A DNA stretch of 46,968 nucleotides from a virus. The stretch is taken from positions 1 to 46,968 of the IMG/VR virus record IMGVR_UViG_3300034069_000691; one strand, 5' to 3'. The notes under the pieces were generated by a model, which was not told the DNA's origin, did not search any database, and saw nothing but the letters and a program-made list of their open reading frames with translations. The position numbers were made by a program, and so were the translations under genes. This document shows, piece after piece, positions 2,084-46,968 of this stretch (position 1 is the first letter of the stretch; each line of letters starts with the position of its first letter).

Positions 2084-2272
2084 GTGTACTCCTTTCGTGT
2101 GAACGGTGATCAGTGAGACAGTTGACAGTCGCGGGTTTGTGGGACGTTGCGGCTGTCGTGACACGCCCCGTCGCGCCCGCTGGTCTGCGTTGACCGGCCT
2201 CGTTGCTTGTCAAGGTAGACAGTAGACGGCCGAGACGGCAGAGCGCAACCCCGACACCCCTAGGATTTGTCC
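2084..2272. promoter_or_regulatory. Divergent immunity/early control region with GACAG-type repeats
   Basis: It lies between divergent HTH genes. TAGGAT (2261-2266) sits 6 nt before the repressor GTG. Repeats occur at 2115-2128 and 2207-2229. Confidence 0.6.
2207..2222 (+). promoter_or_regulatory. 16-bp quasi-palindromic site TTGTCAAGGTAGACAG (candidate operator)
   Basis: 13 of 16 positions are invariant with the sites at 4248..4263 and 40027..40042 (complement). Confidence 0.5.
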
Positions 2273-2695: not shown

Positions 2696-2734
2696 CGAGG
2701 TGGTCCCTGTCAGAGGTCTCGGCTAGCTTCCAAG

Positions 2735-2748
2735 GTGTTCTAGAACAC
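2735..2748. promoter_or_regulatory. Perfect 14-bp palindrome GTGTTCTAGAACAC
   Basis: Read directly from the sequence. It lies in the 77-nt gap upstream of the 61-aa ORF. Confidence 0.4.
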
Positions 2749-2772
2749 AGGACACACACAACGGGGGAAGCG

Positions 2773-2958
2773 TTGACCACGCCAAAGATCATTGTTCTCG
2801 ACCTTCCGCACGACCGGCGCTGGCTCTGGTACAAGGACCTTCAGATCCTCGCGCTCGACACATCCCTAAACGCCGCAGACAGCGAAGCTGCCGTCGACGA
2901 GTTCCTCTCCGAGTCCCGCCGCAGCCTCGTCACACAGCTCGACCGCCCGGCCGTCTAG
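2773..2958 (+). CDS. Hypothetical protein, 61 aa (TTG start)
   Basis: GGGGGAAG lies upstream of the TTG at 2773. Translates as MTTPKIIVLDLPHDRRWLWYKDLQILALDTSL.... It sits between the repressor and the integrase. Confidence 0.45.
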   Translation: MTTPKIIVLDLPHDRRWLWYKDLQILALDTSLNAADSEAAVDEFLSESRRSLVTQLDRPAV

Positions 2959-2997
2959 CCTCACCGTCCCGGCCACAGTCGACAGAGGGGACTTCCC

Positions 2998-4158
2998 ATG
3001 GCCGCGATCCGCAAGCTGCCATCCGGGCGGTGGCAAGCAACGGTCAGACACCCAGCCGGACACCGCCTCACCAAGTCCGACCCGCTCAAACGCATCGTCC
3101 AAGCCTGGGCCGCGCAGACCGAGACACAGCTACGCAACGGCGAGATCGTCGCCGAACGAGGCCGCGGCGTCACCGTGCAGCAGTGGCACGACAGGTGGAT
3201 CGCGGCACGCCGAGTGGAGAAGACCACCGCCCACGAAGAGCGGCTACGCCTGGCCGCATACATCCTCCCGCGGTGGGGGACGTGGCCCCTCCGGCAAATC
3301 GGGCGTATCGACGTCCAGACCTGGATAGCCGACCTGGCCAAGGAACGCGGTCCGCACGTCACCTACGGCTGCTACATGCTGTTCTCCAAGATGCTCGGCG
3401 ACGCGGAGCTCGAGGGGCTGATACCCGCCACCCCGTGCCGAGCGATCGAACTCCCAAAGATCATCAAGCCCGCGCCACGGTGGCTCACCCGCACCGAGTA
3501 CAGCCGACTGCTCGACGCCATGCGCGGGAAAACGGTGCGAACCCGCACCCGGCATGTGCCCGACCCGATGGCCGCGCAGTGGGAAGCAATGGTCGCCGTC
3601 GCCTGCCACTCCGGGCTGCGCTCCGGTGAACTCTCCGGACTCGACGTGTCCGCCGTCGACTTCGACCGCGGCCTGATCCGCGTCGACCAGGTCATGACCC
3701 GGTTCGGCCTACGCGACTACCCCAAGTCCGACTCCTCCCGCCGATCGGTGCCGGTCCACCCCGACGCGCTGGCCATGCTGTGGCGGGTCGTCGCCGACCG
3801 GCCCAGCGACGCCCCGGTGTTCCAAGCCCCACGAGGCGGCCGGCTGCACCAGGGCAACTTCCTCAAGACCGTGTGGCACCCGGCGCTGGTGGAGGCAGGC
3901 ATCGAGCCCGTGCGGGCCTACGTCACCCGGCACACATTCGCCTCATGGTTGATCCAAGACGGGGTGCCGCGATGGGACATCGCCCAAGCCCTCGGGCACC
4001 GGACGACGGCCTTCGTGGACCGGTACGCGTTCCTGGAGCCGGACGCGCACGCACGCATCCGCGCGACGTGGTCTCGAGCTGGCGACGCACCGGCGACGCA
4101 TGGCGTCCCCCAGCCGGGTGAACTTCCCGGCGTAATCCCAGGTCAGAACACGAAGTGA
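2998..4158 (+). CDS. int: Tyrosine integrase (phage integrase family), 386 aa
   Basis: The N-terminus is MAAIRKLPSGRWQATVRHP.... The catalytic region shows HSGLRSGEL, TRHTFASW and LGH...VDRYA. Confidence 0.95.
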   Translation: MAAIRKLPSGRWQATVRHPAGHRLTKSDPLKRIVQAWAAQTETQLRNGEIVAERGRGVTVQQWHDRWIAARRVEKTTAHEERLRLAAYILPRWGTWPLRQIGRIDVQTWIADLAKERGPHVTYGCYMLFSKMLGDAELEGLIPATPCRAIELPKIIKPAPRWLTRTEYSRLLDAMRGKTVRTRTRHVPDPMAAQWEAMVAVACHSGLRSGELSGLDVSAVDFDRGLIRVDQVMTRFGLRDYPKSDSSRRSVPVHPDALAMLWRVVADRPSDAPVFQAPRGGRLHQGNFLKTVWHPALVEAGIEPVRAYVTRHTFASWLIQDGVPRWDIAQALGHRTTAFVDRYAFLEPDAHARIRATWSRAGDAPATHGVPQPGELPGVIPGQNTK

Positions 4159-4345: not shown

Positions 4346-4906
4346 ATGAAGCACGGGGTAGCGGTATTGGCGTTGGGTCTCCTAGTTGCAGGTTGCGGTG
4401 CTGAGCAGGCGCCCGCAGCGCAGCCGGCCGCCGCCACGACGTCGGAGCAGACCAGCGCCCCGACTACGACCCGGCCGGCGCCTACGACAACGGCCGCGCC
4501 GTACACGATGGACGCGGCGTCCGAAGCTGCGTTCGTGGCGCAGGTGACGGCACAGACGTTCACCGCGAACGAGGAGCTGTTCTCCGACCAGCTGGTCAAG
4601 TCCAACACCCTGGTCGAGGCGCAAACCGACTTCCGCTTCGACACGCCCAGCCGCACCCTTGTACTGGCCGTCTCGTCGACTTTCAGCGGCGACAACTACC
4701 TGACGGATCTGGCCTACAGCCTGACGTCGAACTTTGCCCCAGTGTTCTGGGGCGACTCGGTGCCCGACACCATCCGCCCCGAGTCGCTTCCGCTGTTCTC
4801 CGTCGCGGTCGACGGAACGTCGTTCGTATGCCAGCCAGCTGCGATGCAGGCCCTAGCCGACCGCGAGCTCAGCCAGGACATGTTCGCCGAGCAGTGCGCC
4901 GCCTAA
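4346..4906 (+). CDS. Secreted lipoprotein, 186 aa (lysogeny-side moron)
   Basis: The signal peptide and lipobox read MKHGVAVLALGLLVAGC, followed by an Ala/Thr/Pro-rich linker. TACTGT lies 6 nt upstream of the ATG, which suggests a leaderless mRNA. Confidence 0.8.
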   Translation: MKHGVAVLALGLLVAGCGAEQAPAAQPAAATTSEQTSAPTTTRPAPTTTAAPYTMDAASEAAFVAQVTAQTFTANEELFSDQLVKSNTLVEAQTDFRFDTPSRTLVLAVSSTFSGDNYLTDLAYSLTSNFAPVFWGDSVPDTIRPESLPLFSVAVDGTSFVCQPAAMQALADRELSQDMFAEQCAA

Positions 4907-10154: not shown

Positions 10155-10371
10155 CTGTGGCCTCGGCTCGGGCGGCGAGCGCTGCGTCGCGTGTGGCGTC
10201 GGCGAGGGCCTGGTCGTAGGGCTCGGCGCGTTCGGTGTTCAGCCACAGGCGGGCCGCGTCGACCCAGGCGGTTGCGCGGGGGCGCTTGAGCTGCGCGGCC
10301 ACCAGTTCCTTGGCGGCGGCGAGGATCCGCTGGTCGCGGGTGTCGTCTCCGGTGCTCATCGTCTCGACCAC
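10144..10371 (-). CDS. Hypothetical protein, 75 aa
   Basis: Track ORF. The start is either the GTG at 10371 or the ATG at 10359. Confidence 0.55.
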   Translation of the reverse strand: MVETMSTGDDTRDQRILAAAKELVAAQLKRPRATAWVDAARLWLNTERAEPYDQALADATRDAALAARAEATGAS

Positions 10372-10374
10372 GGT

Positions 10375-10638
10375 TCAGGCCTCCGGGGCCGCGTGGTCGC
10401 CGGGCTCATCGAGCACAACCGCGCTCGTGGCCGAGGCGGTACCCGTGTTGCCGAAGGTGAACGATAACAGCGACGTCAGGACCGAGACCAGCGCCGCGGT
10501 GCCAGCAACAGCCAGCGTGGTGCCCCAGTTGACGTCAAGTGCGTTCGAGACGCCCTGCACGGTGAGCACGGCGAGGATGCCCTGCACGAAGGTCTTGCCG
10601 GCGCGCTCGATCAGGTCGAGCCAAAACTGCTGGGTCAC
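10375..10638 (-). CDS. Putative holin, 87 aa
   Basis: The N-terminus MTQQFWLDLIERAGKTFVQ is followed by two hydrophobic segments. A GTG start follows AGGAGA. The gene lies in the lysis cassette. Confidence 0.6.
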   Translation of the reverse strand: MTQQFWLDLIERAGKTFVQGILAVLTVQGVSNALDVNWGTTLAVAGTAALVSVLTSLLSFTFGNTGTASATSAVVLDEPGDHAAPEA

Positions 10639-10646
10639 GGGGTCTC

Positions 10647-10997
10647 CTAGCGTGGGCCGCGGTCGGCCAGGTCGGGGGATGCGGTATCACTGCCGCGGCC
10701 CGCTTCGTGCTGCAGGCCGATGAGGTTGCGGAGCAGGTTCCAGCCGGCGCAGGCCACGCCACCGACGAGGATCAGTCGCACGAGGTCGCGGCCGGGGTAG
10801 TCGCCGAGCATCACGCCGGCGAGGGCGTTGCTGAGGACGGCAACCATGGATGCGGTGAGGGTGAAAATCCCTCGGCCGGTGCTGGTGGCCCGCCAGGGCG
10901 ACCGCAGGCCGTAGAGGATCAAGAAGCTAGCGAACGGTGCCCAGGTGAGCAGGTACACCCAGAACGCTGGGATGGCCCAGAACGGGGGCACGGTCAC
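10647..10997 (-). CDS. Multi-pass membrane protein, 116 aa (lysis cassette)
   Basis: About four hydrophobic segments. GTGA overlap with the upstream gene. Confidence 0.6.
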   Translation of the reverse strand: MTVPPFWAIPAFWVYLLTWAPFASFLILYGLRSPWRATSTGRGIFTLTASMVAVLSNALAGVMLGDYPGRDLVRLILVGGVACAGWNLLRNLIGLQHEAGRGSDTASPDLADRGPR

Positions 10998-27625: not shown

Positions 27626-27744
27626 CAGGCCACCGCCTCTGACCGCCACTCGCGGTCTTCGCGGCGCTTCTCCTGCCGCTTTGACCGTGGCCCATTGCAG
27701 CAGGAACACTGACCGTGCCATCCGAGGCGGCCCAGCAGCTTCAC
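27625..27744 (-). CDS. Possible 39-aa Cys-rich mini-ORF bridging the portal and MuF-like genes
   Basis: GTGA overlap with the portal stop and TGATG overlap with the MuF-like ATG. Translates as VKLLGRLGWHGQCSCCNGPRSKRQEKRREDREWRSEAVA. Confidence 0.4.
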   Translation of the reverse strand: MKLLGRLGWHGQCSCCNGPRSKRQEKRREDREWRSEAVA

Positions 27745-29324
27745 CGGTACGCCTCCTGCGCCTGTGAGCCCGCTCCGCCATCCTGCTCGCGCTGCGCTGC
27801 GTTGGCTGCAGCGACGATGCGGGGGTCGATGAAGTTGCCGCGCTCGTCGGTCATGTCATCGATGAGCTCGTCGATGTCCTCGACCCCGAGCGCTTCCAGC
27901 GCCAGCCGGATGATCAGGTGCAGCGGCACCCCAAGTCCGTCGGCCGCGACCAGCGCCTCGAGCACCTTCTGCGGGTCGGTGTCCTCGATCGGCGGGAAGT
28001 TGATGTCGATGGTGCCGTCGGAGTCCCCGGCGAGGTCGGCGCGCTGACGGTTGCCGTCCTGCACGATCGCGCCCTGCAGTACGCCGGCGTCGACGGCGAC
28101 GAGGATGACGTGCCGTAGCAGGTCGCGCAGCCAGTCGCCCCACACGGACTGCCGGGCCTTGGTGGTCAGCTCGAGCGGCTTGTCCAGCGTCTCGGCGACG
28201 GCGCGGGCGCCGGAGCTGCCGGGGTCGGCGAGCAGCATCGTCAGCGGCACGTCGAGGGCGGCGGCGACCATGCCCGCCAGGGGCTTGCCCGACCCGGAGT
28301 CGATCGTCGCGCCGGACGAGTGCATCGGCGCCATGCTGCCCTCAGACGACATGACGACGGTGCCGCCCACGTCACGGCGCTCCCCGGACACCGGGTCCAG
28401 TCCGGCCTGCCCACGGTTCAGGGCGTCCCGCACCTTGGGTGCGTGCTTGGCGGGGGCGGTGGCCTTGAACGCGTACCGGGCCAGGGCCTGCATCAGCCCG
28501 GCCCAGCCGTTCAGGTAGTCGGCGTACCCGCGGGCCCAGTCGATCGCCGCATAGGAGTCCGACAGACCCCACGGGGCTTCGGTCCAGGAGTTGACGGCGC
28601 AGTGCTGGATCGGCTGGTCCCAGCGGATCGGCTTCATGCCGATCAGGTCCAGCCGCTCACCGGCGGGTGGCCGGTAGTCCAGGGTGGGGTGCCATTCGGT
28701 TCGGGTCTGGGTGACCTTCTGGCCGTTGGCGAGGTTGATGCCGGTGACGGTCCAGTCGCGGCGGTAGAACCAGATCTCGGTTGGGTCGTCGGGGTTGGCG
28801 ATGTAGTCGGTGACCTGGGCGCCCGGCACGAGACGGGGGGTGACCCGCCCGGCACCGTCGTTGATGGCGAGCAGGAAGAACTCACCGGCGGTGCCGAGGT
28901 TCAGTTCCCGCTCTTCGCGTGCCTGCGCCGAGCCGAGGATCCGCTGGAAGTCGGCGGAGTCGAGGAACGCCTGCACGTGGTCGTTGACCTTGGTGTCGCC
29001 GTCGGGGTCGACGCGGGCCGCGATCTCGACGCCCTCGCCCCACACGTAGTTCCGGCGGATCCGCAGGCCCCGACCGATGAGGGGGGACTTGATCGCGGCG
29101 GCGAGGCAGTTGGTCTGGATCTGCAGCAGCCCAGCGCGGGTGAACGTGCGCTCCTGCTCCATGCCCAGCTTTCGCCACCCGATGTCCTCGCGGGCCAGCG
29201 ACTCGAGCCCGGCGAGGGACTCCTGCAGGATCTCGACCTCGTTGCTGACCGCGGCCAGCTCGGAGCGGGGCACCATCGGCTCGGCCTCAGTGAGGTTGCC
29301 GCGCAAGCGGTCGAGGAGTCCCAC
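27741..29324 (-). CDS. Portal protein, 527 aa
   Basis: Supported by its size, its position upstream of the MuF-like gene, and a GTG 6 nt after GGAGG. Confidence 0.9.
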   Translation of the reverse strand: MGLLDRLRGNLTEAEPMVPRSELAAVSNEVEILQESLAGLESLAREDIGWRKLGMEQERTFTRAGLLQIQTNCLAAAIKSPLIGRGLRIRRNYVWGEGVEIAARVDPDGDTKVNDHVQAFLDSADFQRILGSAQAREERELNLGTAGEFFLLAINDGAGRVTPRLVPGAQVTDYIANPDDPTEIWFYRRDWTVTGINLANGQKVTQTRTEWHPTLDYRPPAGERLDLIGMKPIRWDQPIQHCAVNSWTEAPWGLSDSYAAIDWARGYADYLNGWAGLMQALARYAFKATAPAKHAPKVRDALNRGQAGLDPVSGERRDVGGTVVMSSEGSMAPMHSSGATIDSGSGKPLAGMVAAALDVPLTMLLADPGSSGARAVAETLDKPLELTTKARQSVWGDWLRDLLRHVILVAVDAGVLQGAIVQDGNRQRADLAGDSDGTIDINFPPIEDTDPQKVLEALVAADGLGVPLHLIIRLALEALGVEDIDELIDDMTDERGNFIDPRIVAAANAAQREQDGGAGSQAQEAYR

Positions 29325-29335
29325 ACGGCACCTCC

Positions 29336-29368
29336 AAATTAAAGGTTAAGGGGGTGACCCTTTAAATT
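29336..29368. promoter_or_regulatory. AT-rich inverted repeat upstream of the portal gene
   Basis: AAATTAAAGG-13 nt-CCTTTAAATT has a 7-bp perfect core. It lies within a 60-nt stretch that is strikingly AT-rich for this genome and also contains TATAAA. Confidence 0.4.
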
Positions 29369-29387
29369 GGGGGTCTGAATTTATAGC

Positions 29388-29978
29388 TCAGGCAATGTGC
29401 GGCCAGGTCTTGCGCCGCACGATGCCGCTGATGGTTGTCTGATCGACGCCGTAGTCGTCGGCGAGGTCGACCTGCCGGGCCCCGAGCGCGTAGGTGTCGC
29501 GGATGGCGCGCACCTGGTTGTCGGTGAGCTTGGCCTTGACGTTGTTCACGCCCGGTTGTGCGGGCGGAACGAGCGTTAGCGGCCGGCGTCCGCGGTCGAG
29601 CATGTCCCGCGTGTTATCGCGCGGAGTGCCGGCGACCAGGTGGCTGGGGTTGACGCAGGGCGGGTTGTCGCAGCGGTGTCGCACTACCTGGCCGGGCTGC
29701 AGAGGAGCGATCCAGTGGTTGTACAGCCAGCGGGTAGCGCGCCAGCTCTTCCGGTCGGCCCAGAAGATGCCGTAGCCGTCGGAGTCCCGCCCGCCGCGCC
29801 ACTCCCAGCACTCCTCAGCGCCGCGCTGGTCAGTGTGAGAGATGAATCGCTGCATCCGCGGGTCGCCGAACCTGACCACGTAAGGGGCTAGCACCTTGAG
29901 CCCGGCAAGCAGTTCGGGCTGGTCGGGCATCGCGTCGGTGAGCGCGGTGATGACCTCGTCCACTTCGCTGGCGTTCAT
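29388..29978 (-). CDS. HNH endonuclease with a C-terminal HTH-like domain, 196 aa
   Basis: Motifs are CWEWRGGRDSDGYG... and HRCDNPPCVNPSHLVAGTPRDNTRD. The tail reads KLTDNQVRAIR...DQTTISGIVRRKTW. The start was trimmed to the ATG at 29976-29978. Confidence 0.9.
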   Translation of the reverse strand: MNASEVDEVITALTDAMPDQPELLAGLKVLAPYVVRFGDPRMQRFISHTDQRGAEECWEWRGGRDSDGYGIFWADRKSWRATRWLYNHWIAPLQPGQVVRHRCDNPPCVNPSHLVAGTPRDNTRDMLDRGRRPLTLVPPAQPGVNNVKAKLTDNQVRAIRDTYALGARQVDLADDYGVDQTTISGIVRRKTWPHIA

Positions 29979-30016
29979 CGAGGCAGGGGCAAGACCGTGG
30001 CTGTCATGTGTGCATC

Positions 30017-30045
30017 TTGACATAGGACAGCTTGCTAGGCAAGAT
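30017..30045 (+). promoter_or_regulatory. Candidate sigma-70-type promoter of the plus-strand cassette (TTGACA-17 nt-CAAGAT)
   Basis: Read directly from the sequence. It is followed by AGGAGG (30078-30083) and the GTG at 30089. Confidence 0.45.
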
Positions 30046-30088
30046 AGGAGAGCAGCAACCGGCCGCCAGTGATGCACAGGAGGTTCCC

Positions 30089-30292
30089 GTGAACGCCAAG
30101 ACACTTCAGCTTCGCAGCAAGCTCGCCACCCATGTCCGGTATCACCCAAACGACACCCAGACGCATGATGAAATCCGCCGCGATCTTCGAGCGGCACGCT
30201 GCGAGGAGTACATCGAGCAGGTGCTGGCAGAAGACCCACCGCTTACTGACGACCAGCGTCAGCGGCTAGTGGTCATGTTGGCCGACTCGTGA
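30089..30292 (+). CDS. Hypothetical protein, 67 aa (cassette gene 1)
   Basis: The GTG lies 5 nt after AGGAGG. The track ORF start at 30032 was trimmed. Confidence 0.65.
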   Translation: MNAKTLQLRSKLATHVRYHPNDTQTHDEIRRDLRAARCEEYIEQVLAEDPPLTDDQRQRLVVMLADS

Positions 30293-30483
30293 GTGCCGAA
30301 CCCACCGCAGAGCAGATCGCCGCGATCGCTGCTGCTGTCGCAGCTGAACGGGAGAAGTACCTGGCGGTGGCCGACGAGCTCATTCATAGGGCACGCGTGT
30401 TCAGCGAACTAATGCCAACCGATGACTACATCGGTTCCGAGTACGTTGAAGCAGCCATACGCATTCGTGAGGTGGCGGGGTGA
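30289..30483 (+). CDS. Hypothetical protein, 64 aa (cassette gene 2; paralogue of 35840..36145)
   Basis: GTGA overlap. It shares AAAV(A/T)AER(E/D)KYL.VADEL and (I/R)RIREVA(G/K) with the 101-aa early protein. Confidence 0.7.
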   Translation: MSAEPTAEQIAAIAAAVAAEREKYLAVADELIHRARVFSELMPTDDYIGSEYVEAAIRIREVAG

Positions 30484-30494
30484 CGGATCGGTCA

Positions 30495-30653
30495 ATGCAT
30501 CCACCGGTAGCCAATAGGCACCTCCTGCGCCGAGCAATACCCGTAGATCATCCCGTATGGCGCCGCCTCATGCGGGACGCCGTAGCAAATGACAGCACCC
30601 GCGCCGAGGCAGTACGGGATGCAAATGACGACCAGTTCGGGACTTTGCCATGA
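30495..30653 (+). CDS. Hypothetical protein, 52 aa (cassette gene 3; below the track cutoff)
   Basis: The ATG lies 11 nt after the previous stop. The ORF's stop overlaps the next ATG (ATGA). Confidence 0.45.
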   Translation: MHPPVANRHLLRRAIPVDHPVWRRLMRDAVANDSTRAEAVRDANDDQFGTLP

Positions 30654-30859
30654 GTGGCCGGCGGTGGTCGCAGATTATCTGCGACGCGAGTGATTGTCAG
30701 GAGGGAACCAAGGTGGTTCTGGGCGTAGAGAAAGACGCGCGTAACAGCGTTGCCGGTTGGCATATATGGAACGGTTTCGATCTCTGCCCATCTTGCTGGA
30801 AACGACGCAACACCGAACCGGTCACCTTCGTGACGTTGATGAGGCAGCTCAGAGCATGA
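30650..30859 (+). CDS. Hypothetical Cys4 (zinc-ribbon-like) protein, 69 aa (cassette gene 4)
   Basis: It contains CDASDC ... CPSC. An alternative GTG at 30713 follows AGGAGGG. Confidence 0.55.
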   Translation: MSGRRWSQIICDASDCQEGTKVVLGVEKDARNSVAGWHIWNGFDLCPSCWKRRNTEPVTFVTLMRQLRA

Positions 30860-31080
30860 CCTCGGACGACGTGGAACGCCGCCTGCGCGGAGCGGCCAAA
30901 CGGCGAGGTCTGCGCCTGTCCCGGAACGCTAGGCAGAGGCCGGTGCGGGGCGTTTTCTATTACGTGTACGACCGCGATGGCTTACGAGTCAGCCCAGCCG
31001 ACGGGATGACGATGGCCGCCACCCTGGACTGGTTCAGGAACACCGAGTATCGCGTGTTAGACAAGGAGGAGTGGTTGTGA
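30856..31080 (+). CDS. Hypothetical basic protein, 74 aa (cassette gene 5)
   Basis: The ATG at 30856 overlaps the previous stop (ATGA). The N-terminus is Arg-rich. Confidence 0.6.
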   Translation: MTSDDVERRLRGAAKRRGLRLSRNARQRPVRGVFYYVYDRDGLRVSPADGMTMAATLDWFRNTEYRVLDKEEWL

Positions 31081-31247
31081 TTGAGCCGACTGGCGACCAA
31101 TTGGCCTCGGACTTCGGTGACATCGAGCACCTATCGAAGGCGGATGCTCAGGCTATGCGAGAGATCGCCGAGACCATGATCCAGGCCTACTGCGGGGATG
31201 ACGACGACCTGTACATCGGCCTTCTGGATGAGGACGAACAGCTGTGA
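31077..31247 (+). CDS. Hypothetical strongly acidic protein, 56 aa (cassette gene 6; below the track cutoff)
   Basis: GTGA overlap. By my count, 16 of 56 residues are Asp/Glu and 2 are Lys/Arg. Confidence 0.55.
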   Translation: MIEPTGDQLASDFGDIEHLSKADAQAMREIAETMIQAYCGDDDDLYIGLLDEDEQL

Positions 31248-31303
31248 CTGGCCGCTGGTGCACGTTGTGCAGTCGCTTCGCTCTGACGGGCTGTTGTCGT
31301 ACA

Positions 31304-31368
31304 GCCGAAGCCGACCGGCCCCGTAGCCCTAGGGCTACCAGTGTGGGCCGGCCGGTCGGGGCCTCGGC
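31304..31368. terminator. Long imperfect hairpin between the convergent cassette and terL
   Basis: GCCGAAGCCGACCGGCC pairs with GGCCGGTCGGGGCCTCGGC, with an inner TAGCCC-TA-GGGCTA palindrome. Confidence 0.4.
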
Positions 31369-31521
31369 TACAGACCCGAAGTCCACGCCGAGGTTCTGAA
31401 ACCCCGAACCCTAGGCGCGGGGTGGGTAGGCCCCCGAGTGGCTAAGAGCCAGAGGCTCACACCACCCGGGGGCGGGGAGCGTCTACCCCAGACTTAGGTC
31501 CGATCAGCGCCCGTCTGGATA

Positions 31522-33003
31522 CTAGTAGGAGCTGACCGTGTAGGGCAGCTCCTCGTCGTCCCAGTCGTCGGCGGGTTCGCCGAACAGTGGGTTGATCAGC
31601 AGTCGGTTGAGGCCCTGCGTGAGCGCGTCCACGGCGTCGTCGTGCGCGCCGGCGGGGAACGCTGCGGCTTCCTCAACCAGCTCTTCAACGTTCGGCAGCA
31701 GTGCGGGTTCGGGCAGGTGCACGTTGCCGGCGTGGACGAACGGTGCGACGGCCTGAGCGCGGGCCATCTTCCCGCCGTCGGGTTCGACGGGGATCAGCCC
31801 ACCCACCGAGGAGGCGAGCAGGTTGATGACCGCGGTGCCGTTGGCCTTGTCCTCCACGTACTTGGCGTTGGCTTGCGGCCAGCGCGCGGACAGGTCCTTG
31901 ACGGCGGCCAGGGTGGCGGTGAAGTCCATGCGGCGGCGCACCATCTCCAGCACCCACACCTGCACTCCGCGGCGCAGTAGCACCATCCCGACGACGTAGT
32001 CGGATGAGTCGGTGCCCTTGAATGCCATGTCCCATGTTTGGACCAGCTCATCGCCGGCGGTCATCGGCACCCAGCAGGAGCCGTCCGCCCGCACGATGTG
32101 CTGCGCGGTGTCGAAGCGGTGGTCGCGCCACGCATCGCGGGGGAACAGGTTGCCCTCGTCGGGTGTAGGCCGACCCTGGTAGAGGCTGGCCCACGTGCGT
32201 GGCCCTGAACGGGTCTTGATGCCTTCCCACTGGCCGGTGGTCCGGCCGCGGGCGGACAGCATGAACTCACCCGGCTGACGGTTCAGCGGGTCAGTCTCGG
32301 CCTGCTCGGGCTTGTGGTCGGCCTGGGCGGGGATGTTCACGACCCGCCATGACGCGCCATCGTTGGCGGCGAGCAGCCGGCCGATCATGTCGTCGTGGTG
32401 CCAGCGGGTGGCGATGACCGCGACCGGGGCGCCGGGGGCGAGTCGGGTTGATCCGACCTCAAGCCACCAGTCCCAGGCGCGTTCTCGGTAGGTGAGGGAG
32501 TCGGCCTGTTCGCGGTCCTTGACGGGGTCGTCGACGATCATCAGGTCGACGGGGCGGCCGGTGAGCGCGCCACCGATGCCGGTGGAGTAGACGCCGCCGC
32601 GGTGCCCGTCGAGCTGCCATTCGTTCTGCGCTGACACGTCGGGTCGGATGCGCAGGCCCAGTTGGGGGTTCATGACGATGAAGTCCCGCACTGACCGGGA
32701 GATGCGGCGGGCGACGTTGTGTTCGTAGGACACGATCGCGATCCGCAGTTCCGGGTTGTGGAGCAGCGCCCACAGGGGGAATTTCTTGGATGCGGTTTCG
32801 GTCTTGCCTTCCTGCGGTGGCATGGATGTGACGAGCCGGCCGTCGGGGGTGTTGTACAGGCGCACGAGCTCGGCGTTGATGAGCTCAAGTGCGGGGGTGC
32901 GGCGGGTGCCCTTGTCGATGGCCTGGGCAAGGTCGAGGGGCGTCTCGTAAGTGTGCGCTGGCTGCTCGATGGCTTCGATGGCGTAGTCGAGCCAGGTGGT
33001 CAC
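31522..33003 (-). CDS. terL: Terminase large subunit, 493 aa
   Basis: Walker A-like PPQEGKT and Walker B-like DLMIVDD, with a C-terminal nuclease-like half (WDMAF..., AHDDAVDAL). The start is the GTG at 33001-33003. Confidence 0.95.
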   Translation of the reverse strand: MTTWLDYAIEAIEQPAHTYETPLDLAQAIDKGTRRTPALELINAELVRLYNTPDGRLVTSMPPQEGKTETASKKFPLWALLHNPELRIAIVSYEHNVARRISRSVRDFIVMNPQLGLRIRPDVSAQNEWQLDGHRGGVYSTGIGGALTGRPVDLMIVDDPVKDREQADSLTYRERAWDWWLEVGSTRLAPGAPVAVIATRWHHDDMIGRLLAANDGASWRVVNIPAQADHKPEQAETDPLNRQPGEFMLSARGRTTGQWEGIKTRSGPRTWASLYQGRPTPDEGNLFPRDAWRDHRFDTAQHIVRADGSCWVPMTAGDELVQTWDMAFKGTDSSDYVVGMVLLRRGVQVWVLEMVRRRMDFTATLAAVKDLSARWPQANAKYVEDKANGTAVINLLASSVGGLIPVEPDGGKMARAQAVAPFVHAGNVHLPEPALLPNVEELVEEAAAFPAGAHDDAVDALTQGLNRLLINPLFGEPADDWDDEELPYTVSSY

Positions 33004-33016
33004 CGGCTACCTCAGT

Positions 33017-33181
33017 TCAGTCGCAGTCCCACCGGTCGAGCAGGTCGTCCATGGCTGCGTTGATCTGGGCGAGCCATGCCCGGTTGTCTGGGTCGTCGCG
33101 TTCAGCGAGGGACCGTTTGGCGCGTTGGCGTTCGTGTCAGAGGGCTAGTTCCATGTCGGAGACGCTGACGCGGGGGGTCAT
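33017..33181 (-). other. 54-codon reading frame interrupted by an in-frame TGA (33137..33139) immediately upstream of terL
   Basis: Translates as MTPRVSVSDMELAL*HERQRAKRSLAERDDPDNRAWLAQINAAMDDLLDRWDCD*. Both halves lie in the same frame and both have coding-like GC3. Confidence 0.35.
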
Positions 33182-33189
33182 TGCTGCCC

Positions 33190-33752
33190 CCTTGTTGGTG
33201 TCCCGCTCGGCTAGTCGCTTCCCCCGACCAGCCGAGCGGGCGTGTGTGGGCTGGCCGCGGGCCGTGTTCGTGGATCCCCGCCAGCAGTCGGTGATCAGCC
33301 GACCTCTTGCTACAGCCACGCCTTCCCGGAGGATGACGGGCATCAAGACCCCGCACACAAGGCGACGGGGTGGGTTTGGGCCGGAAGCCCCGGGCCCTGG
33401 GATCCACCGACGCATCGGAGGATGAGGGACAGCAACGCCCCCGGGTGATCCGGGCGCTTCCGGCTGTTCAGTTGTCCGGGCTGACCCGGTCTTTCTCAGC
33501 TAGCCGCGTCGGGCTAGGGCTCGCGGGTCTCCAGACCCGCATTCGCTCCCGGCCGCGCGTGGGCGGCGGGACGTTGGGGGCCGGCACTGCCCTCTGACAG
33601 GTGGTGCCGGCCGTGCCGACCAGGACGCCCCCTAGTCGGCACAAACCCCGGGGCGCCTTTGGCTGCCACCGGGGTCTAGCGCGGCACGGTGCAGACACGT
33701 GTGGCGCTGCACATGAGGGTGGCGGACTTCGATCACGGTGTCAAGTGGTCGG
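33190..33752. other. About 560-nt non-coding, hairpin-dense region (candidate packaging site or late regulatory region)
   Basis: No credible ORF. Stems occur at 33202-33240 (11 bp), 33500-33517, 33523-33540, 33579-33612 (9 bp), 33613-33642 (8 bp), 33645-33675 and 33689-33712. Confidence 0.5.
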
Positions 33753-33983
33753 TCAGACACTGGACACAGAGCCCGTCGGGAGGCCCAGCGCTTCCTGCGC
33801 CTGGCGGCGGGAGACCAACACGTTGCGACCCACCACCGAGCAGGCGACGGCAGGCACCCGCCTGCGGATCACATCCACACCGATGCCGGTCAAGGCGGAC
33901 GCGACCTGTCGTGTGATCAGCGGGTCTTCGTCTTCCCACCACACCGGCTCGGGGTGGGGGAGCAGTGCACGGCCGCGCCTCAC
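33753..33983 (-). CDS. Small HTH (excisionase-family-like) DNA-binding protein, 76 aa
   Basis: The GTG at 33981-33983 overlaps the upstream stop (GTGA). GC3 rises sharply only from this start. The HTH-like segment is LITRQVASALTGIGVDVIRRRV. Confidence 0.6.
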   Translation of the reverse strand: MRRGRALLPHPEPVWWEDEDPLITRQVASALTGIGVDVIRRRVPAVACSVVGRNVLVSRRQAQEALGLPTGSVSSV

Positions 33984-34150
33984 GGTTGCCGGATCTGACG
34001 CTTGTTGCAAATCTCGCAGTTCCGTACGTCGTTGACGACTCGGGTCTCCCGCAAGTCTCGCCACTTGGTCCACCTATGCCGGTGTCGACGCTGCCATGGC
34101 ATTCGGACGTCGTTCTCCTGGGTGATCCATGACTGCTCCGTGTCGCTCAC
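33980..34150 (-). CDS. Hypothetical basic protein, 56 aa (below the track cutoff)
   Basis: GTGA overlaps at both ends. Translates as VSDTEQSWITQENDVRMPWQRRHRHRWTKWRDLRETRVVNDVRNCEICNKRQIRQP. Confidence 0.5.
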   Translation of the reverse strand: MSDTEQSWITQENDVRMPWQRRHRHRWTKWRDLRETRVVNDVRNCEICNKRQIRQP

Positions 34151-42679: not shown

Positions 42680-43398
42680 CCGGCTGCCTTCCGGTCGGCT
42701 TCGCATCCGTTGCAGACCCGGTCGTAGCTGGTGTCGTGGATCAGGCAGCGGTTAAGCGGGGCGACGAGCCGCAACCCGGGGCCGGCTGCGTCGGCTGCCA
42801 TGCGAGCGTCCTTGCAGGCGCCACACGGCGGCGGCGCTGGGTGATCAAGGTGGGTGGGGCATCGTCGAGGGAGGGGGGGCATCGCACTTGCGACCCCTAC
42901 TGACGTGAGTTCCCCCCTCTCTTGAGTAGTTACTTCTGTCTCTGTCTCTGTAGATGCGACGGTTTGCGACGGCTTTGCGATCGCAGTTGCGATCCGACTG
43001 CGATCGCCGGAAGGGTCGTCTTGGCAATACTCGCAGTCGGCCTTTGGGGTCCGCTTGATGACGTGCCAGCGGACGTGGTTTCCGTAACTCCCGCTGTTGC
43101 CCTTGACCGACTTGTACAGCTCGATCTCGGCGGCCGAGCGTTGATGTTCCAGGTAGTCATGGGCCTGTAGGTGGTCGTCGTGGACCTCGATGAGGCCAGC
43201 TGCGATGAGCTCCCGGCGGGCCTTCGGGGTACCTCGCTTCGCCCACGCTTTAGCCGTCATGCGGCCGTCGGTGCCGTTGCGCGAGGAGTAGCACCAGGTG
43301 GTGATCAGCAGCCGAAAAGCGGCGTCAGTCAAGCCTTCAATCTTCGGGTGTTCGTCAAAGCCGTCGTGCACTCGGATGTACGTGCGGTCGTCGGGCAT
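42676..43398 (-). CDS. Putative replication-organiser / DNA-binding protein, 240 aa
   Basis: The N-terminus MPDDRTYIRVHDGFDEHPKIEGLTDAAFRLLITTWCYSSRNGTDG resembles phage replisome-organiser N-domains. This is from memory and was not searched. Confidence 0.45.
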   Translation of the reverse strand: MPDDRTYIRVHDGFDEHPKIEGLTDAAFRLLITTWCYSSRNGTDGRMTAKAWAKRGTPKARRELIAAGLIEVHDDHLQAHDYLEHQRSAAEIELYKSVKGNSGSYGNHVRWHVIKRTPKADCEYCQDDPSGDRSRIATAIAKPSQTVASTETETEVTTQERGELTSVGVASAMPPLPRRCPTHLDHPAPPPCGACKDARMAADAAGPGLRLVAPLNRCLIHDTSYDRVCNGCEADRKAAG

Positions 43399-43565
43399 CA
43401 GGCTGCCCTGCGCTGTTCGTCGGCGTGCAGTCGTTCGCGGTGGTGCTCGATCTGAGTGACGGACGGCAGCGTCTGGCTGGGGGTGTTGCGGTACTCGGGG
43501 CAGGGGCGCATCGTCTCGGCGATGGCCGCCCGGTACCAGGCTTCGAGCTCGTCGTCGGCGGTCAC
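43398..43565 (-). CDS. Hypothetical protein, 55 aa (below the track cutoff)
   Basis: GTGA overlap with the WhiB stop and TGATG overlap with the next ATG. Confidence 0.5.
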   Translation of the reverse strand: MTADDELEAWYRAAIAETMRPCPEYRNTPSQTLPSVTQIEHHRERLHADEQRRAA

Positions 43566-43960: not shown

Positions 43961-44058
43961 GTGGGTCTCCGTTCGCGCCCGCGTGGGGCGGCTACTTCGG
44001 GGTCTCGTCTGCGGGTCGTGCAGTGTCGATGTGGACGGCAGACAGTGCGGCCGACCGG

Positions 44059-44301
44059 TCAGATCTCGTCGAGGTCGTCAGCGATCTCACGCAGGAACCG
44101 TGCGGCGGCAGTCGGGGTGAGGTTGGCGCCCGTCAGCTGGCCACCAACCTCCACGCGTATCCACACCAGGCCGAACGAGTCAACCGCTCTGGTGAGGTCT
44201 CGTGGCGGGCTCGTGCGGTCACGGGCCGCGAACCGGTCTGGGGTGGGCAGAGCCAGCTGGCCGGGCACGGATTCGACCCGAGGCAGGTCGGCGGCGGTCA
44301 T
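44059..44301 (-). CDS. Hypothetical protein, 80 aa
   Basis: Track ORF with an ATGA overlap. Confidence 0.6.
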   Translation of the reverse strand: MTAADLPRVESVPGQLALPTPDRFAARDRTSPPRDLTRAVDSFGLVWIRVEVGGQLTGANLTPTAAARFLREIADDLDEI

Positions 44302-44618
44302 GCCGGCACCGCCGTCCGAGCTGGCGTCAGCTCCCGTTGGATGACGCCCGACGCGAAGTGCTCAGGTCGCCACACGTGCACGCTGTGCCCGCCCTGCTCG
44401 AGCGCCGCAATCCACTGCCGCTGCTCCGGGGTTAGGCGGCCGACGTCAGTCTTGAGCTCTATGAACTTGAGCTCACCGGTGCGCGGGTGGACCAGCACCA
44501 GGTCGGGCAGGCCGCGTCGGTTGCGGCGGGAGTCGACGTCGTGGAACCACAGCCACCCCCGCAGCTTGACGAGGTCGACGACGGCCTGCTGAAACTGGGC
44601 CTCCGTAGGGCGGGTCAC
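44298..44618 (-). CDS. VRR-NUC domain nuclease, 106 aa
   Basis: PDLVLV...ELKFIELKT forms a D...ExK motif. The GTG at 44616-44618 overlaps the mini-ORF stop. Confidence 0.75.
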   Translation of the reverse strand: MTRPTEAQFQQAVVDLVKLRGWLWFHDVDSRRNRRGLPDLVLVHPRTGELKFIELKTDVGRLTPEQRQWIAALEQGGHSVHVWRPEHFASGVIQRELTPARTAVPA

Positions 44619-46461: not shown

Positions 46462-46968
46462 GCCGCCACTGCCAGTCCGGTCCGCATGGGCCACTGCCCG
46501 TCGGGGAGGTCTTCGGTCTTCCCCTGCCGGATCAGGTACTGGCGGAACGAGGCCGCCTGCTCTGCTGCCCAGTCGATCTGCACGTCGTGCAGCTCGGGCA
46601 CGGTCATGGCGGCGATGCGCGGGTAGCGGCGGGCGATGGCCCACAGGACGCGGGCGGCTGCGAACGCGTCGGCGGTGGCGTCGTGGGCTCCGCCGTGCCG
46701 GACGCCGTAGTGCTCGCAGGCGGCGGTGAGGGTGCGCTTGCCCTTGCGGTACCGGTCGACGGCCTTGTCGATGACGAACGGGTCCAGGACGTGCATCCCG
46801 GTCGACATGGGCGGGGTGTGGTGTCGGACGGTCTCGTGGTGCAGGAGGGTGAGGTCGAAGCTGGCGTTGTAGGCCAGCACCGGGACGCCGTCGGTGACCG
46901 CGGAGGTGAGCGCGTCGACGATCTCGGTGACGCACTCGGCGGGTGGCCGGCCGTGGGTGATGGCTTGG
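46458..46968 (-). CDS. DnaQ-like 3'-5' exonuclease, C-terminal part (start codon at 339-341 after wrapping)
   Basis: ExoII is LAYNASFDL and ExoIII is GGAHDATADA. There is no start inside this end of the window. Confidence 0.85.
   Translation of the reverse strand, partial: QAITHGRPPAECVTEIVDALTSAVTDGVPVLAYNASFDLTLLHHETVRHHTPPMSTGMHVLDPFVIDKAVDRYRKGKRTLTAACEHYGVRHGGAHDATADAFAAARVLWAIARRYPRIAAMTVPELHDVQIDWAAEQAASFRQYLIRQGKTEDLPDGQWPMRTGLAVAA
46828..46968. repeat. Terminal direct repeat, identical to 1..141
   Basis: Base-by-base comparison of the window start and end. Confidence 0.95.

What the first reader, a model, noticed from the sequence alone, without database searches (positions are those of the whole stretch)
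29325..31521. A 2.2-kb island splits terL from the portal gene: an HNH endonuclease plus a six-gene opposite-strand cassette of unknowns
terL and portal genes are normally adjacent. Here they are separated by:
- (a) a 196-aa HNH endonuclease with a C-terminal HTH-like tail, on the late strand;
- (b) six small plus-strand ORFs of 67, 64, 52, 69, 74 and 56 aa (30089-31247).

The six ORFs are chained by GTGA/ATGA overlaps and run against about 40 kb of minus-strand genes. They are driven by TTGACA-17 nt-CAAGAT plus an AGGAGG RBS and closed by a long hairpin (31304-31368).

The cassette is visibly less GC-rich, with weaker GC3 bias than its neighbours, which suggests recent acquisition. Two of the six ORFs fall below the ORF-track cutoff. 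I recognise no domain in any of them.

An independently promoted, reverse-oriented block in the middle of the late operon is the signature of a lysogeny-expressed moron (defence, exclusion, toxin-antitoxin or anti-defence). It may have been mobilised by the neighbouring homing-type endonuclease.
Basis: partly seen in the sequence, partly recalled or inferred. Interest (0 to 1): 0.7.

Follow-up and report, generated by a model that had tools for sequence, protein, structure and literature searches.

The report
Homing endonuclease plus foreign six-gene moron
A temperate actinobacterial phage carries 2.2 kb of extra DNA between its terminase and portal genes: a selfish homing-type HNH endonuclease gene and, acquired separately, a foreign self-contained operon of six tiny genes of unknown function. 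This is a clear but ordinary example of how phage genomes pick up accessory "moron" genes.

Summary
terL (31522-33003, -) and portal (27741-29324, -) are split by 2,197 bp. That DNA holds an HNH_3/His-Me endonuclease with a C-terminal HTH (29388-29978, -) and six plus-strand ORFs (30089-31247) chained by five ATGA/GTGA overlaps. No shuffle of 500 gave a chain longer than 3.

In six relatives terL and portal are 15-64 nt apart. One relative has only an HNH there, and none has the cassette. The cassette is the lowest-GC stretch of the genome (0.60 vs 0.69, about -3.4 sd). The HNH has native composition, and its homologs sit at another site (after MuF) in two relatives. I therefore read them as two independent insertions, not one HNH-mobilised unit.

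The cassette fits the operational definition of a moron. It has a perfect -35 with a weak -10, a strong RBS, and an array of four GC-rich hairpins rather than the single one reported. The phage is temperate and the cassette points the same way as int and the repressor. Expression in lysogeny is untested.

No product matches any defence, toxin-antitoxin or anti-defence family. o1 belongs to a family of at least 380 uncharacterised proteins, almost always encoded next to integrases of actinobacterial integrative elements. o4 is a zinc-ribbon-like protein that is an ordinary early gene in a related phage. o2, o3, o5 and o6 are orphans. Verdict: a new member of a known kind, of modest interest.

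The parts
31522..33003 (-). terL (large terminase, 493 aa). It forms the upstream border of the island and its C-terminus is intact.
   Evidence: Terminase_6N/6C and phrog_38 5e-100. The terminal ...SSY* resembles relatives that end in Y*.
31248..31521 (.). 274-nt non-coding spacer between the convergent o6 and terL genes, filled with GC-rich hairpins. H1 is 31303-31369, H2 31356-31399 (followed by UUCU on +), H3 31401-31423 (followed by UUU on -), H4 31430-31473. I read it as a likely bidirectional terminator and insulator zone.
   Evidence: Whole-spacer fold z = -3.2 on + and -4.3 on -. H1 is -41.5/-47.2 kcal/mol, H2 -24.8 (z -3.4), H4 -37.7 (z -5.2). No Rfam match. No other copy in the genome or in the loci. 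ORF7 (31244-31399), which spans it, has a non-coding GC pattern of 0.54/0.79/0.71.
31077..31247 (+). o6: 56 aa (58 aa from GTG 31071), very acidic (pI 4.05, net charge -14), orphan. It is preceded by AAGGAGGAG.
   Evidence: Only a self-hit among 1.84 billion representative proteins. No PDB match.
30856..31080 (+). o5: 74 aa, basic (pI 10.2), orphan. Its ATG overlaps the o4 stop (ATGA).
   Evidence: The AlphaFold single-sequence model has pLDDT 50 and is unusable.
30650..30859 (+). o4: 69 aa with four cysteines (C-x4-C ... C-x2-C), zinc-ribbon-like.
   Evidence: One homolog, P0025 (47% identity, E 3e-6, cysteines conserved). In the related phage L012/L013, P0025 is a co-oriented early-region gene two genes upstream of DUF6221.
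30480..30653 (+). o3: 57 aa (or 52 aa from ATG 30495). It has the weakest coding evidence and is an orphan.
   Evidence: GC1/2/3 of 0.72/0.50/0.59. Not called in the public assembly. No database hit, not even to itself. Supported only by its place in the overlap chain.
30289..30483 (+). o2: 64 aa, acidic (pI 4.5), Ala-rich and helical, orphan.
30089..30292 (+). o1: 67 aa, three-helix protein. It belongs to a large uncharacterised actinobacterial family with the motif R-x-HP-x-D...RRDLRAA..E-YI...APPLT-x-x-QR-x-RL.
   Evidence: About 128 of the 133 hits in the exhaustive search are to o1, and the profile search finds at least 380 members. AF2 pLDDT is 92.7 with helices 3-18, 23-48 and 54-65, and there is no PDB fold match. 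phrog_24177 hit at 2e-7, function unknown. Family members lie 0-1 kb from a site-specific recombinase in 15 of 18 loci.
30017..30083 (+). Putative sigma-A-type promoter: TTGACA 30017-30022, 17 nt, CAAGAT 30040-30045. A 13-bp palindrome CTTGCTAGGCAAG (30031-30043) lies over the spacer and the -10. The AGGAGG RBS is at 30078-30083.
   Evidence: It is the only such site on the plus strand; shuffles give 0.48 on both strands together. The palindrome is unique in the genome. No motif is shared with other regions. The E. coli-type consensus scan does not detect it.
29388..29978 (-). Free-standing HNH_3/His-Me endonuclease with a C-terminal HTH, 196 aa, native-like composition (GC3 0.87). No obvious RBS or promoter of its own.
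   Evidence: phrog_59 2e-27, HNH_3 2.6e-5, phrog_517 (HTH) 1.2e-10. Homologs at 45-49% identity sit at the same junction in L011 and after MuF in L008. A weaker homolog (34% over 82 residues) sits after MuF in L012. At least 594 relatives in IMG/VR. No minus-strand promoter found.
29325..29387 (-). AT-rich 63-nt spacer between the HNH stop and the portal start. It holds an inverted repeat (29330-29345 / 29359-29374) and the portal RBS (GGAGG).
   Evidence: I3; -18.9 kcal/mol, z -2.7.
27741..29324 (-). Portal gene (527 aa). It forms the downstream border of the island and its N-terminus is intact.
   Evidence: phrog_10963 3e-101. The N-terminus VGLLD... is the same as in L008 and L009.

Best explanation
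The 2.2 kb between terL and portal is extra DNA made of two separately acquired modules.

Module A (29388-29978, minus strand) is a free-standing homing-type HNH_3/His-Me endonuclease with an HTH DNA-binding tail. It is a selfish gene from this phage lineage's own gene pool that occupies different intergenic sites of the packaging/head module in different relatives. I infer that it is transcribed by read-through of the late operon.

Module B (about 30017-31480, plus strand) is a foreign, lower-GC, self-contained operon, a 'moron' in the Juhala/Hendrix sense. It has a host sigma-A-type promoter with an overlapping palindrome, a strong RBS, six translationally coupled small ORFs and a block of stable hairpins.

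Inferred mechanism:
- Host RNA polymerase transcribes the cassette independently of, and convergently with, late transcription. This would happen in the prophage and/or immediately after infection.
- The hairpin array stops cassette transcripts from running antisense into terL. It also insulates or punctuates the late transcript.
- Late read-through towards the HNH and portal produces antisense RNA across the cassette and shuts it down late in infection.
- The six products are small, soluble, non-membrane and non-enzymatic. They most likely act by binding other proteins or nucleic acids, as regulators or inhibitors.
- o1 is of a type normally encoded beside the integrase of actinobacterial integrative elements. 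o4 is a zinc-ribbon-like protein of a type found among early genes of related phages. This suggests the cassette was assembled from the regulatory/early gene pool of other mobile elements.

Shown here: the insertion, the foreign composition, the operon architecture and the family relations. Inferred: promoter activity, timing of expression, terminator function and biological role.
For: Insertion: six relatives have terL and portal 15-64 nt apart. These are L008, L009, L010, L012, L019 and Brevibacterium phage LuckyBarnes. L011 has only an HNH there, and none has the cassette.

Two modules:
- HNH GC3 is 0.87, against 0.58-0.80 for the cassette.
- The GC trough covers the 5' end of the HNH gene, the divergent spacer and the cassette, while most of the HNH gene is native-like.
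- HNH homologs sit after MuF in L008 (49% identity) and L012 (34% over 82 residues), and alone at this junction in L011.

Operon:
- Five consecutive 4-nt start/stop overlaps. No shuffle of 500 reached a chain longer than 3.
- Strong SD sequences before o1 and o6.
- GC2 is the lowest or joint-lowest codon position in every ORF.
- The promoter-like site is unique on the plus strand.
- The hairpin array has z-scores of -3.2 to -5.2.

Temperate phage with int and repressor on the same strand as the cassette.

o1: conserved family with a confident 3-helix model. o4: homolog with conserved cysteines sitting as an early gene in a related phage. No transmembrane-like segments.
Against: - The -10 hexamer is weak, and the consensus scans find neither a promoter nor a canonical terminator.
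- There are no expression data.
- Four of the six ORFs are orphans. o3 has a weak coding signal and was not called by the public pipeline.
- No function can be assigned from any library.
- The cassette is known from only one phage, seen twice with 0 differences over 21.5 kb. Conservation and purifying selection therefore cannot be assessed.
- No promoter was found for HNH/portal. The hairpin array would then have to be read through by late transcription, which is unexplained.
Confidence: 0.6

Rival explanations
1. One mobile unit. The HNH endonuclease and the six-gene cassette travel together: the endonuclease cuts cassette-less terL-portal junctions and the repair copies the whole 2.2 kb.
For: The two are physically adjacent and divergently arranged around a 110-bp spacer. 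Co-conversion of flanking DNA by free-standing homing endonucleases is established in T-even phages (general knowledge). The HNH occupies this same junction in L011.
Against: - HNH composition is native while the cassette is foreign.
- L011 has an HNH alone at the junction. L008 and L012 have the homolog elsewhere and no cassette.
- Among 80 HNH relatives, 41 of 60 scorable ones are co-oriented with their upstream neighbour. Most divergent neighbours are large genes, not small-ORF cassettes (a crude gene call).
Confidence: 0.12
2. An early lytic operon rather than a lysogeny-expressed moron. The promoter fires right after infection and is repressed in the prophage, and the products take over the host or counter its defences. 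For example, the very acidic o6 could be a nucleic-acid mimic.
For: A host-type promoter is what early genes use. A palindrome overlaps the -10 and could be a repressor site. The only homolog of o4 is an early-region gene in a related phage. o6 has net charge -14 over 56 aa.
Against: The palindrome and the promoter region share no motif with the immunity region or any other part of the genome, so control by the phage repressor has no sequence support. The cassette has the orientation of the lysogeny module, not of the early genes. There is no match to any known anti-defence protein.
Confidence: 0.25
3. Inert passenger DNA. It is a recently captured fragment of another mobile element that is not expressed or is decaying, and some of the six ORFs are not genes.
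For: Four ORFs are orphans among 1.84 billion representatives. o3 has weak GC3 and no database record. o3 and o4 were not called by the public pipeline. o1 sits away from its usual integrase neighbour.
Against: The chain of six ORFs with exact 4-nt overlaps is unbroken (0 of 500 shuffles). SD sequences are intact. o1 keeps all nearly invariant family residues and o4 keeps its four cysteines.
Confidence: 0.15
4. A toxin-antitoxin or abortive-infection module, for example basic o5 with acidic o6, that stabilises the prophage or kills infected cells.
For: A translationally coupled pair with pI 10.2 and pI 4.05. Many prophage morons are of this kind (general knowledge).
Against: No hit in PADLOC, Pfam, NCBIfam or PDB even at E up to 1. 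A six-gene layout is atypical for a toxin-antitoxin module. The o5 model is unusable.
Confidence: 0.08

Closest known systems
Morons of lambdoid and other temperate phages (Juhala et al. 2000 and Hendrix et al. 2000; examples are lambda bor and lom and the HK97 morons). From my own knowledge.
   Same: Extra DNA lies between two genes that are adjacent in relatives. Its base composition is distinct. It carries its own promoter-like and terminator-like signals. It sits inside the late/structural region of a temperate phage.
   Different: It holds six translationally coupled small ORFs rather than one or two genes. Its orientation is convergent with the late operon. It ends in a four-hairpin array instead of a single terminator. 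Expression from the prophage is not shown, and no lysogenic-conversion function is recognisable.
Free-standing HNH (HNH_3 / His-Me finger) homing endonuclease genes of phages (PHROG 59; I-HmuI-like enzymes and the many 'HNH endonuclease' genes of actinobacteriophages).
   Same: HNH_3/His-Me motif plus a DNA-binding HTH tail. Intergenic location. Patchy presence and variable position among relatives. The family is very abundant in viral contigs.
   Different: The Pfam score is just below the curated cut-off (24.2 vs 24.8 bits). The N-terminal 40 residues are unique. Cleavage specificity and homing are untested.
HK97 gp74-type HNH packaging accessory proteins (Kala et al. 2014). From my own knowledge.
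   Same: An HNH protein encoded next to the terminase and portal genes.
   Different: The window protein matches HNH_3 with an HTH, not the short PF01844-type HNH. It is absent from the junction in six relatives and sits after MuF in two. It is therefore not a conserved component of the packaging machine.
Small recombination directionality factors of actinobacterial serine integrases: phiJoe gp52 and phiRv1 Rv1584c (Fogg et al. 2017, PMC5311408; Ghosh et al. 2006, PMC1470463).
   Same: Members of the o1 family are about 70 aa and are encoded within 1 kb of a large serine recombinase in small integrative elements, as these RDFs are.
   Different: - o1 itself is 26 kb from the phage's integrase, which is a tyrosine recombinase.
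- phiJoe gp52 is unrelated to the family (hhalign probability 1%).
- phiRv1 Xis is described as basic and Xis-like (PMC1470463). o1 has pI 5.8 and a three-helix fold with no Xis match.
- The Rv1584c sequence could not be obtained, so it was not compared.

Membership tests
Moron (operational definition of Juhala/Hendrix) | Extra DNA between two genes that are adjacent in related phages | tested here: met
   terL and portal are 15-64 nt apart in L008, L009, L010, L012, L019 and LuckyBarnes. L011 has an HNH only. The cassette is in none of the 7.
Moron (operational definition of Juhala/Hendrix) | Base composition distinct from the surrounding genome | tested here: met
   GC is 0.60 against a genome mean of 0.692 with sd 0.027, the lowest in the genome. 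GC3 is 0.58-0.80 against 0.87-0.93.
Moron (operational definition of Juhala/Hendrix) | Own promoter | tested here: inconclusive
   There is a perfect TTGACA, a 17-nt spacer and a weak CAAGAT, and the site is unique on the plus strand. The consensus scan finds no promoter. No transcript data are available.
Moron (operational definition of Juhala/Hendrix) | Own terminator | tested here: inconclusive
   Four stable hairpins lie downstream of o6. None has a canonical U-tract and the scan finds no intrinsic terminator. U-tract-less terminators are common in high-GC actinobacteria (general knowledge).
Moron (operational definition of Juhala/Hendrix) | Expressed from the repressed prophage | not testable with these tools
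   This needs lysogen RNA-seq. The only supporting facts are that the phage is temperate and that the cassette is co-oriented with int and the repressor.
Free-standing HNH homing endonuclease | HNH/His-Me catalytic motif | tested here: met
   phrog_59 2e-27, phrog_826 8e-26, Pfam HNH_3 2.6e-5 (24.2 bits, cut-off 24.8), zf-His_Me_endon 1.4e-4. The motif reads HRCDNPPCVNPSHL.
Free-standing HNH homing endonuclease | Sporadic presence and variable position among related genomes | tested here: met
   It is at the terL-portal junction in the window and in L011. It sits after MuF in L008 and L012. It is absent from the junction in L008, L009, L010, L012, L019 and LuckyBarnes.
Free-standing HNH homing endonuclease | Site-specific cleavage of the endonuclease-free allele, and homing | not testable with these tools
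   This requires enzyme assays or mixed infections.
HK97 gp74-type packaging HNH | Conserved partner of the terminase across relatives, of the short PF01844 type | tested here: not met
   The best matches are HNH_3 and His-Me with an HTH tail. The gene is missing from the junction in six relatives.
Known anti-phage defence or toxin-antitoxin systems | At least one component matching a described defence, toxin or antitoxin family | tested here: not met
   PADLOC gives no hit at E up to 1. Pfam, NCBIfam and PHROGs give nothing significant for o2-o6. PDB sequence searches give nothing at E below 0.01.
Serine-integrase RDF (phiJoe gp52 / phiRv1 Xis type) | Sequence relationship to a characterised small RDF | tested here: not met
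   The o1-family profile against phiJoe gp52 gives hhalign probability 1.1%. Rv1584c was not available for comparison.
Serine-integrase RDF (phiJoe gp52 / phiRv1 Xis type) | Encoded next to its cognate integrase | tested here: not met
   Family members meet this: 15 of 18 loci by tool evidence, plus L028 by eye. o1 itself is about 26 kb from the only recombinase, a tyrosine integrase.

The most novel reading that the evidence does not exclude
o1 is a phage-borne copy of a factor that normally sits beside the integrase of small actinobacterial integrative elements. These are phiRv1-like elements with a serine recombinase, Prim-Pol/D5 helicase and sometimes a capsid gene, and they may be phage satellites. 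On this reading the cassette is a captured control region of such an element. The phage would use it to manipulate resident elements, for example by triggering or blocking their excision or replication, or to escape interference from them. The o1 family would then be a new class of integrase-associated regulator or directionality factor.
Probability: 0.1. Interest if true: 0.6.

Novelty: new member of a known kind. Interest (0 to 1): 0.3.

Why it matters
It is a clean example of mosaic phage evolution, backed by comparison with relatives. A selfish endonuclease gene and a foreign accessory operon have landed in the same intergenic gap of an otherwise tightly packed late operon. The operon is transcribed head-on against the late genes.

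If the cassette is expressed in lysogens, it is a candidate source of new small-protein functions such as exclusion, anti-defence or regulation. None of its products resembles anything described.

The by-product may be more useful than the island itself. The o1 family has at least 380 members, a confident three-helix model and near-constant linkage to serine or tyrosine recombinases of actinobacterial integrative elements. It is an uncharacterised and experimentally tractable candidate regulator or directionality factor.

Tried and rejected
- **Concatenated o1-o6, word-indexed protein search:** nothing found, probably swamped by low-complexity words. A search with o1 alone found only itself.
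- **tblastn of the concatenate against phages and plasmids, and of a consensus-like family member against phages:** no match.
- **o6's 90% cluster** contains a 385-aa M20 peptidase from a 4.6-Mb genome. It is unrelated, so this is a clustering artefact.
- **Metagenome scan with portal, and a portal-alignment scan:** almost no new relatives. The viral-contig scan with the 74-sequence o1 alignment failed because no stretch was conserved enough.
- **Rfam**, at gathering and at E-value thresholds: nothing in the island.
- **o1:** no fold-search match (best E 3.8) and no PDB profile match.
- **o5:** the single-sequence AlphaFold model has pLDDT 50, so I ran no fold search on it.
- **Operator hypothesis:** the promoter palindrome does not recur, and no 12-mer is shared with the immunity region above chance.
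- **RDF hypothesis for o1:** phiJoe gp52 is unrelated. Rv1584c could not be retrieved, and a motif search of the literature found nothing.
- **Packaging-HNH reading:** rejected because of the domain type and the patchy distribution.
- **ORF7 (31244-31399),** a seventh ORF chained by GTGA: rejected as non-coding because GC2 is highest and it is made of hairpins.
- **Polymorphism or dN/dS between the two known copies:** not possible, since there are 0 differences.

Full report
**1. What the window is**

The 46,968-nt window has a 141-nt terminal overlap. It is identical to a 46.9-kb contig assembled from run SRR23972087. It is therefore a complete phage genome of about 46.8 kb and 69% GC. No isolated phage is close to it: the only nucleotide match is 141 nt of the portal gene of Brevibacterium phage LuckyBarnes.

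Nearly all genes lie on the minus strand. A plus-strand block holds an HTH repressor-like gene (2267-2695) and a tyrosine integrase (2998-4158). The phage is temperate.

**2.

- terL is 31522-33003 (-), portal is 27741-29324 (-), and a 196-aa HNH endonuclease is 29388-29978 (-). All three are confirmed by family searches.
- The HNH is of the HNH_3/His-Me type with a C-terminal helix-turn-helix. Its hits are phrog_59 at 2e-27, Pfam HNH_3 at 24.2 bits against a cut-off of 24.8, and phrog_517 at 1e-10.
- The six plus-strand ORFs are at the stated coordinates. All five junctions are ATGA or GTGA overlaps. A chain of six ORFs of at least 50 aa linked this way never appeared in 500 shuffles of the region; the longest chain was 3.
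- o1 and o6 are preceded by strong Shine-Dalgarno sequences.
- The cassette has GC 0.56-0.64 and GC3 0.58-0.80. terL, portal and the HNH have GC 0.68-0.70 and GC3 0.87-0.93. Nine of the ten lowest-GC 600-nt windows of the genome start between 29801 and 30701, and the trough is about 3.4 sd below the mean.
- TTGACA-17 nt-CAAGAT at 30017-30045 is the only such site on the plus strand. Its -10 is weak, and the standard consensus scan finds no promoter or terminator in the island.
- The reported hairpin (about 31303-31369; -41.5 kcal/mol on +, -47.2 on -) is real. It is one of four stable hairpins that fill the 274-nt spacer between o6 and terL. The strongest in z-score, 31430-31473, folds at -37.7 kcal/mol with z -5.2 and lies just after the terL stop on the late strand.
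- Nothing in the island matches Rfam.

**3. It is an insertion, and it is two insertions**

I found portal relatives at 47-76% identity in viral and metagenome collections.

| Relative | What lies between terL and portal |
|---|---|
| L008, L009, L010, L012 | 16-21 nt carrying only the portal RBS |
| L019 | a terminase ORF of another type ends within about 64 nt of portal |
| LuckyBarnes (annotated) | 15 nt |
| L011 (= L020) | an HNH gene alone, 45% identical to the window's |

- None of the seven has any cassette gene.
- In L008 the HNH homolog (49% identity) lies after the MuF-like head gene. In L012 a weaker homolog (34% over 82 residues, annotated HNH_3) lies at the same position.
- The terL C-terminus and the portal N-terminus are intact in the window. 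The extra DNA is therefore exactly intergenic.
- The HNH has native composition and belongs to a family with at least 594 members in IMG/VR, none more than 49% identical.
- The cassette is compositionally foreign.
- A crude survey of the 80 best HNH relatives shows no recurrent association with divergent small-gene blocks. 41 of 60 scorable cases are co-oriented with the upstream gene, and most divergent neighbours are large genes.

Together these results point to a homing-type endonuclease gene that hops among intergenic sites of the packaging/head module. The foreign operon would be a separate acquisition that happens to share the gap. The idea that the HNH mobilised the cassette is not excluded for this one case. 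Nothing supports it.

**4. What the cassette encodes**

An exhaustive HMMER search of the concatenated products against 1.84 billion representative proteins gave the following:

| ORF | Result |
|---|---|
| o2, o5, o6 | only their own records |
| o3 | nothing |
| o4 | one homolog |
| o1 | a large family |

- **Curated libraries.** Pfam, PHROGs, NCBIfam, PADLOC and PDB sequence searches gave nothing significant for o2-o6.
- **Physical properties.** All six products are small and soluble, with no membrane-like segment. o5 is basic (pI 10.2) and o6 very acidic (pI 4.05, net charge -14).
- **o4.** It has four cysteines (C-x4-C ... C-x2-C) that are conserved in its homolog P0025. In the related phage L012/L013, P0025 is an ordinary co-oriented early-region gene two genes upstream of a DUF6221 gene. 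The window has a DUF6221 gene in the corresponding region.
- **o1.** It belongs to a family of at least 380 actinobacterial proteins of about 70 aa. All are annotated as hypothetical and none has a Pfam domain. AlphaFold predicts a confident three-helix protein (pLDDT 92.7) with no fold match in the PDB.
- **o5.** The single-sequence model is unusable (pLDDT 50).

**5. The o1 family marks integrative elements**

- In 15 of 18 independent loci, the o1-like gene lies 0-1 kb from a site-specific recombinase on the same strand. Thirteen are large serine recombinases and two are tyrosine integrases. A sixteenth locus, L028, has a serine-recombinase-like ORF that I identified by eye only. The remaining two loci are short or uninformative.
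- Downstream genes are typically Prim-Pol and D5/DnaB-type helicases, HTH proteins, DUF2742, WhiB and in one case a capsid gene. These are phiRv1-like integrative elements.
- The Streptomyces smyrnaeus example (L037) is a five-gene element inserted next to uvrC.
- In the window, o1 is 26 kb from the only recombinase, and there is no paralog elsewhere.
- I tested the obvious idea that the family is a small recombination directionality factor. phiJoe gp52, a validated RDF said to resemble phiRv1 Xis (PMC5311408), is unrelated to the family (hhalign probability 1%). phiRv1 Xis is described as basic and Xis-like (PMC1470463), which does not fit o1. I could not obtain the Rv1584c sequence, so that comparison remains open.

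**6. How it most likely works**

Shown here:
- an insertion absent from relatives;
- foreign composition;
- a tight six-ORF operon with a promoter-like site and a strong RBS at its head, and a hairpin block at its tail;
- the same orientation as the lysogeny genes of a temperate phage.

Inferred:
- Host sigma-A RNA polymerase transcribes the cassette independently of the late operon, in the prophage and/or right after infection.
- A 13-bp palindrome (30031-30043) overlaps the -10. It is unique in the genome and unrelated to any other region. It could be an autoregulatory site, so control by the phage repressor has no sequence support.
- The hairpin array would stop cassette transcripts from running antisense into terL.
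- No promoter was found on the minus strand for HNH or portal. Late transcription presumably reads through the array and across the cassette in antisense, which would silence the cassette late.
- The products look like binders or regulators rather than enzymes.

This matches the operational definition of a moron on the two criteria that sequence can settle: insertion between otherwise adjacent genes, and distinct composition. The promoter and terminator criteria are inconclusive. Prophage expression is untestable here.

**7. Rivals**

- **One HNH-driven mobile unit (0.12).** See section 3.
- **Early lytic or anti-defence operon repressed in lysogens (0.25).** A host-type promoter, o4's early-gene relative and the acidic o6 speak for it. 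The orientation and the lack of a shared operator speak against it.
- **Inert or decaying passenger DNA (0.15).** The orphans and the weak signal of o3 speak for it. The unbroken overlap chain and the conserved residues in o1 and o4 speak against it.
- **Toxin-antitoxin or abortive-infection pair o5/o6 (0.08).** Only the charge complementarity supports it.

**8. Verdict**

The finding is real and well described. Its main interpretation, an independently organised accessory island in the late operon, is reasonable. It is a new instance of two well-known kinds of element, a free-standing homing endonuclease gene and a moron, not a new kind of system. No defence or toxin function is supported.

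The most interesting spin-off is the uncharacterised o1 family, which is tightly linked to recombinases of actinobacterial integrative elements. Interest is 0.3.

Noticed in passing
L014-L016, L022-L038 (o1-family loci); window 30089-30292: An uncharacterised family of about 70-aa three-helix proteins (at least 380 members, motif ...RRDLRAA..E-YI...APPLT-x-x-QR-x-RL...) is encoded 0-1 kb from a large serine or tyrosine recombinase in 15 of 18 loci. It is usually followed by Prim-Pol/D5 helicase genes. These are phiRv1-like integrative elements, and the family is a candidate regulator or directionality factor.
   Followed up: partly
L006:6591-8840: A terL relative (about 50% identity) is interrupted in frame by roughly 270 extra residues (C...HN signature, no stop codons). 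This is an intein inside the large terminase.
   Followed up: partly
window 1-141 and 46828-46968: A 141-nt terminal direct overlap shows that the window is a complete genome, either circularly assembled or terminally redundant.
   Followed up: yes
window 2267-4158: A plus-strand lysogeny module holds an HTH repressor-like gene (2267-2695), a 61-aa ORF (2773-2958) just upstream of int that could be an excisionase, and a tyrosine integrase (2998-4158). A 186-aa ORF at 4346-4906 begins with a lipoprotein-like signal (…LLVAGCG…), which I noted by eye.
   Followed up: partly
window 10235-10723 and 44023-44592: Two further plus-strand ORFs (162 and 189 aa, GC3 0.82-0.84) are embedded in minus-strand gene blocks and have no Pfam or PHROG match. 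They may be additional reverse-oriented accessory genes. The second-lowest GC region of the genome is at about 42800-43500.
   Followed up: no
window 33004-34146: About 1.1 kb between the DUF6221 gene and terL has no gene in the public annotation. It contains several short minus-strand ORFs (92, 76, 106 and 59 aa) and the only minus-strand TTGACA-17-NANNNT site (at 33744). It is a likely place for the small terminase, the packaging site or a late promoter.
   Followed up: no
L011:3582-3746 (= L020:1582-1746): The relative that has an HNH alone at the terL-portal junction carries a second HNH-like segment about 4 kb upstream. This phage group carries multiple endonuclease genes.
   Followed up: no
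window 30032-30292: The JGI annotation calls o1 as 86 aa from TTG 30032, a start that lies inside the putative promoter. The 67-aa form from GTG 30089 has the AGGAGG RBS and matches the length of family members.
   Followed up: yes
protein cluster of o6 (P0003/P0135): The 90%-identity cluster of the 56-aa o6 lists a 385-aa M20 peptidase from a 4.6-Mb genome as a member. The two are unrelated, so the public clustering has an artefact here.
   Followed up: yes
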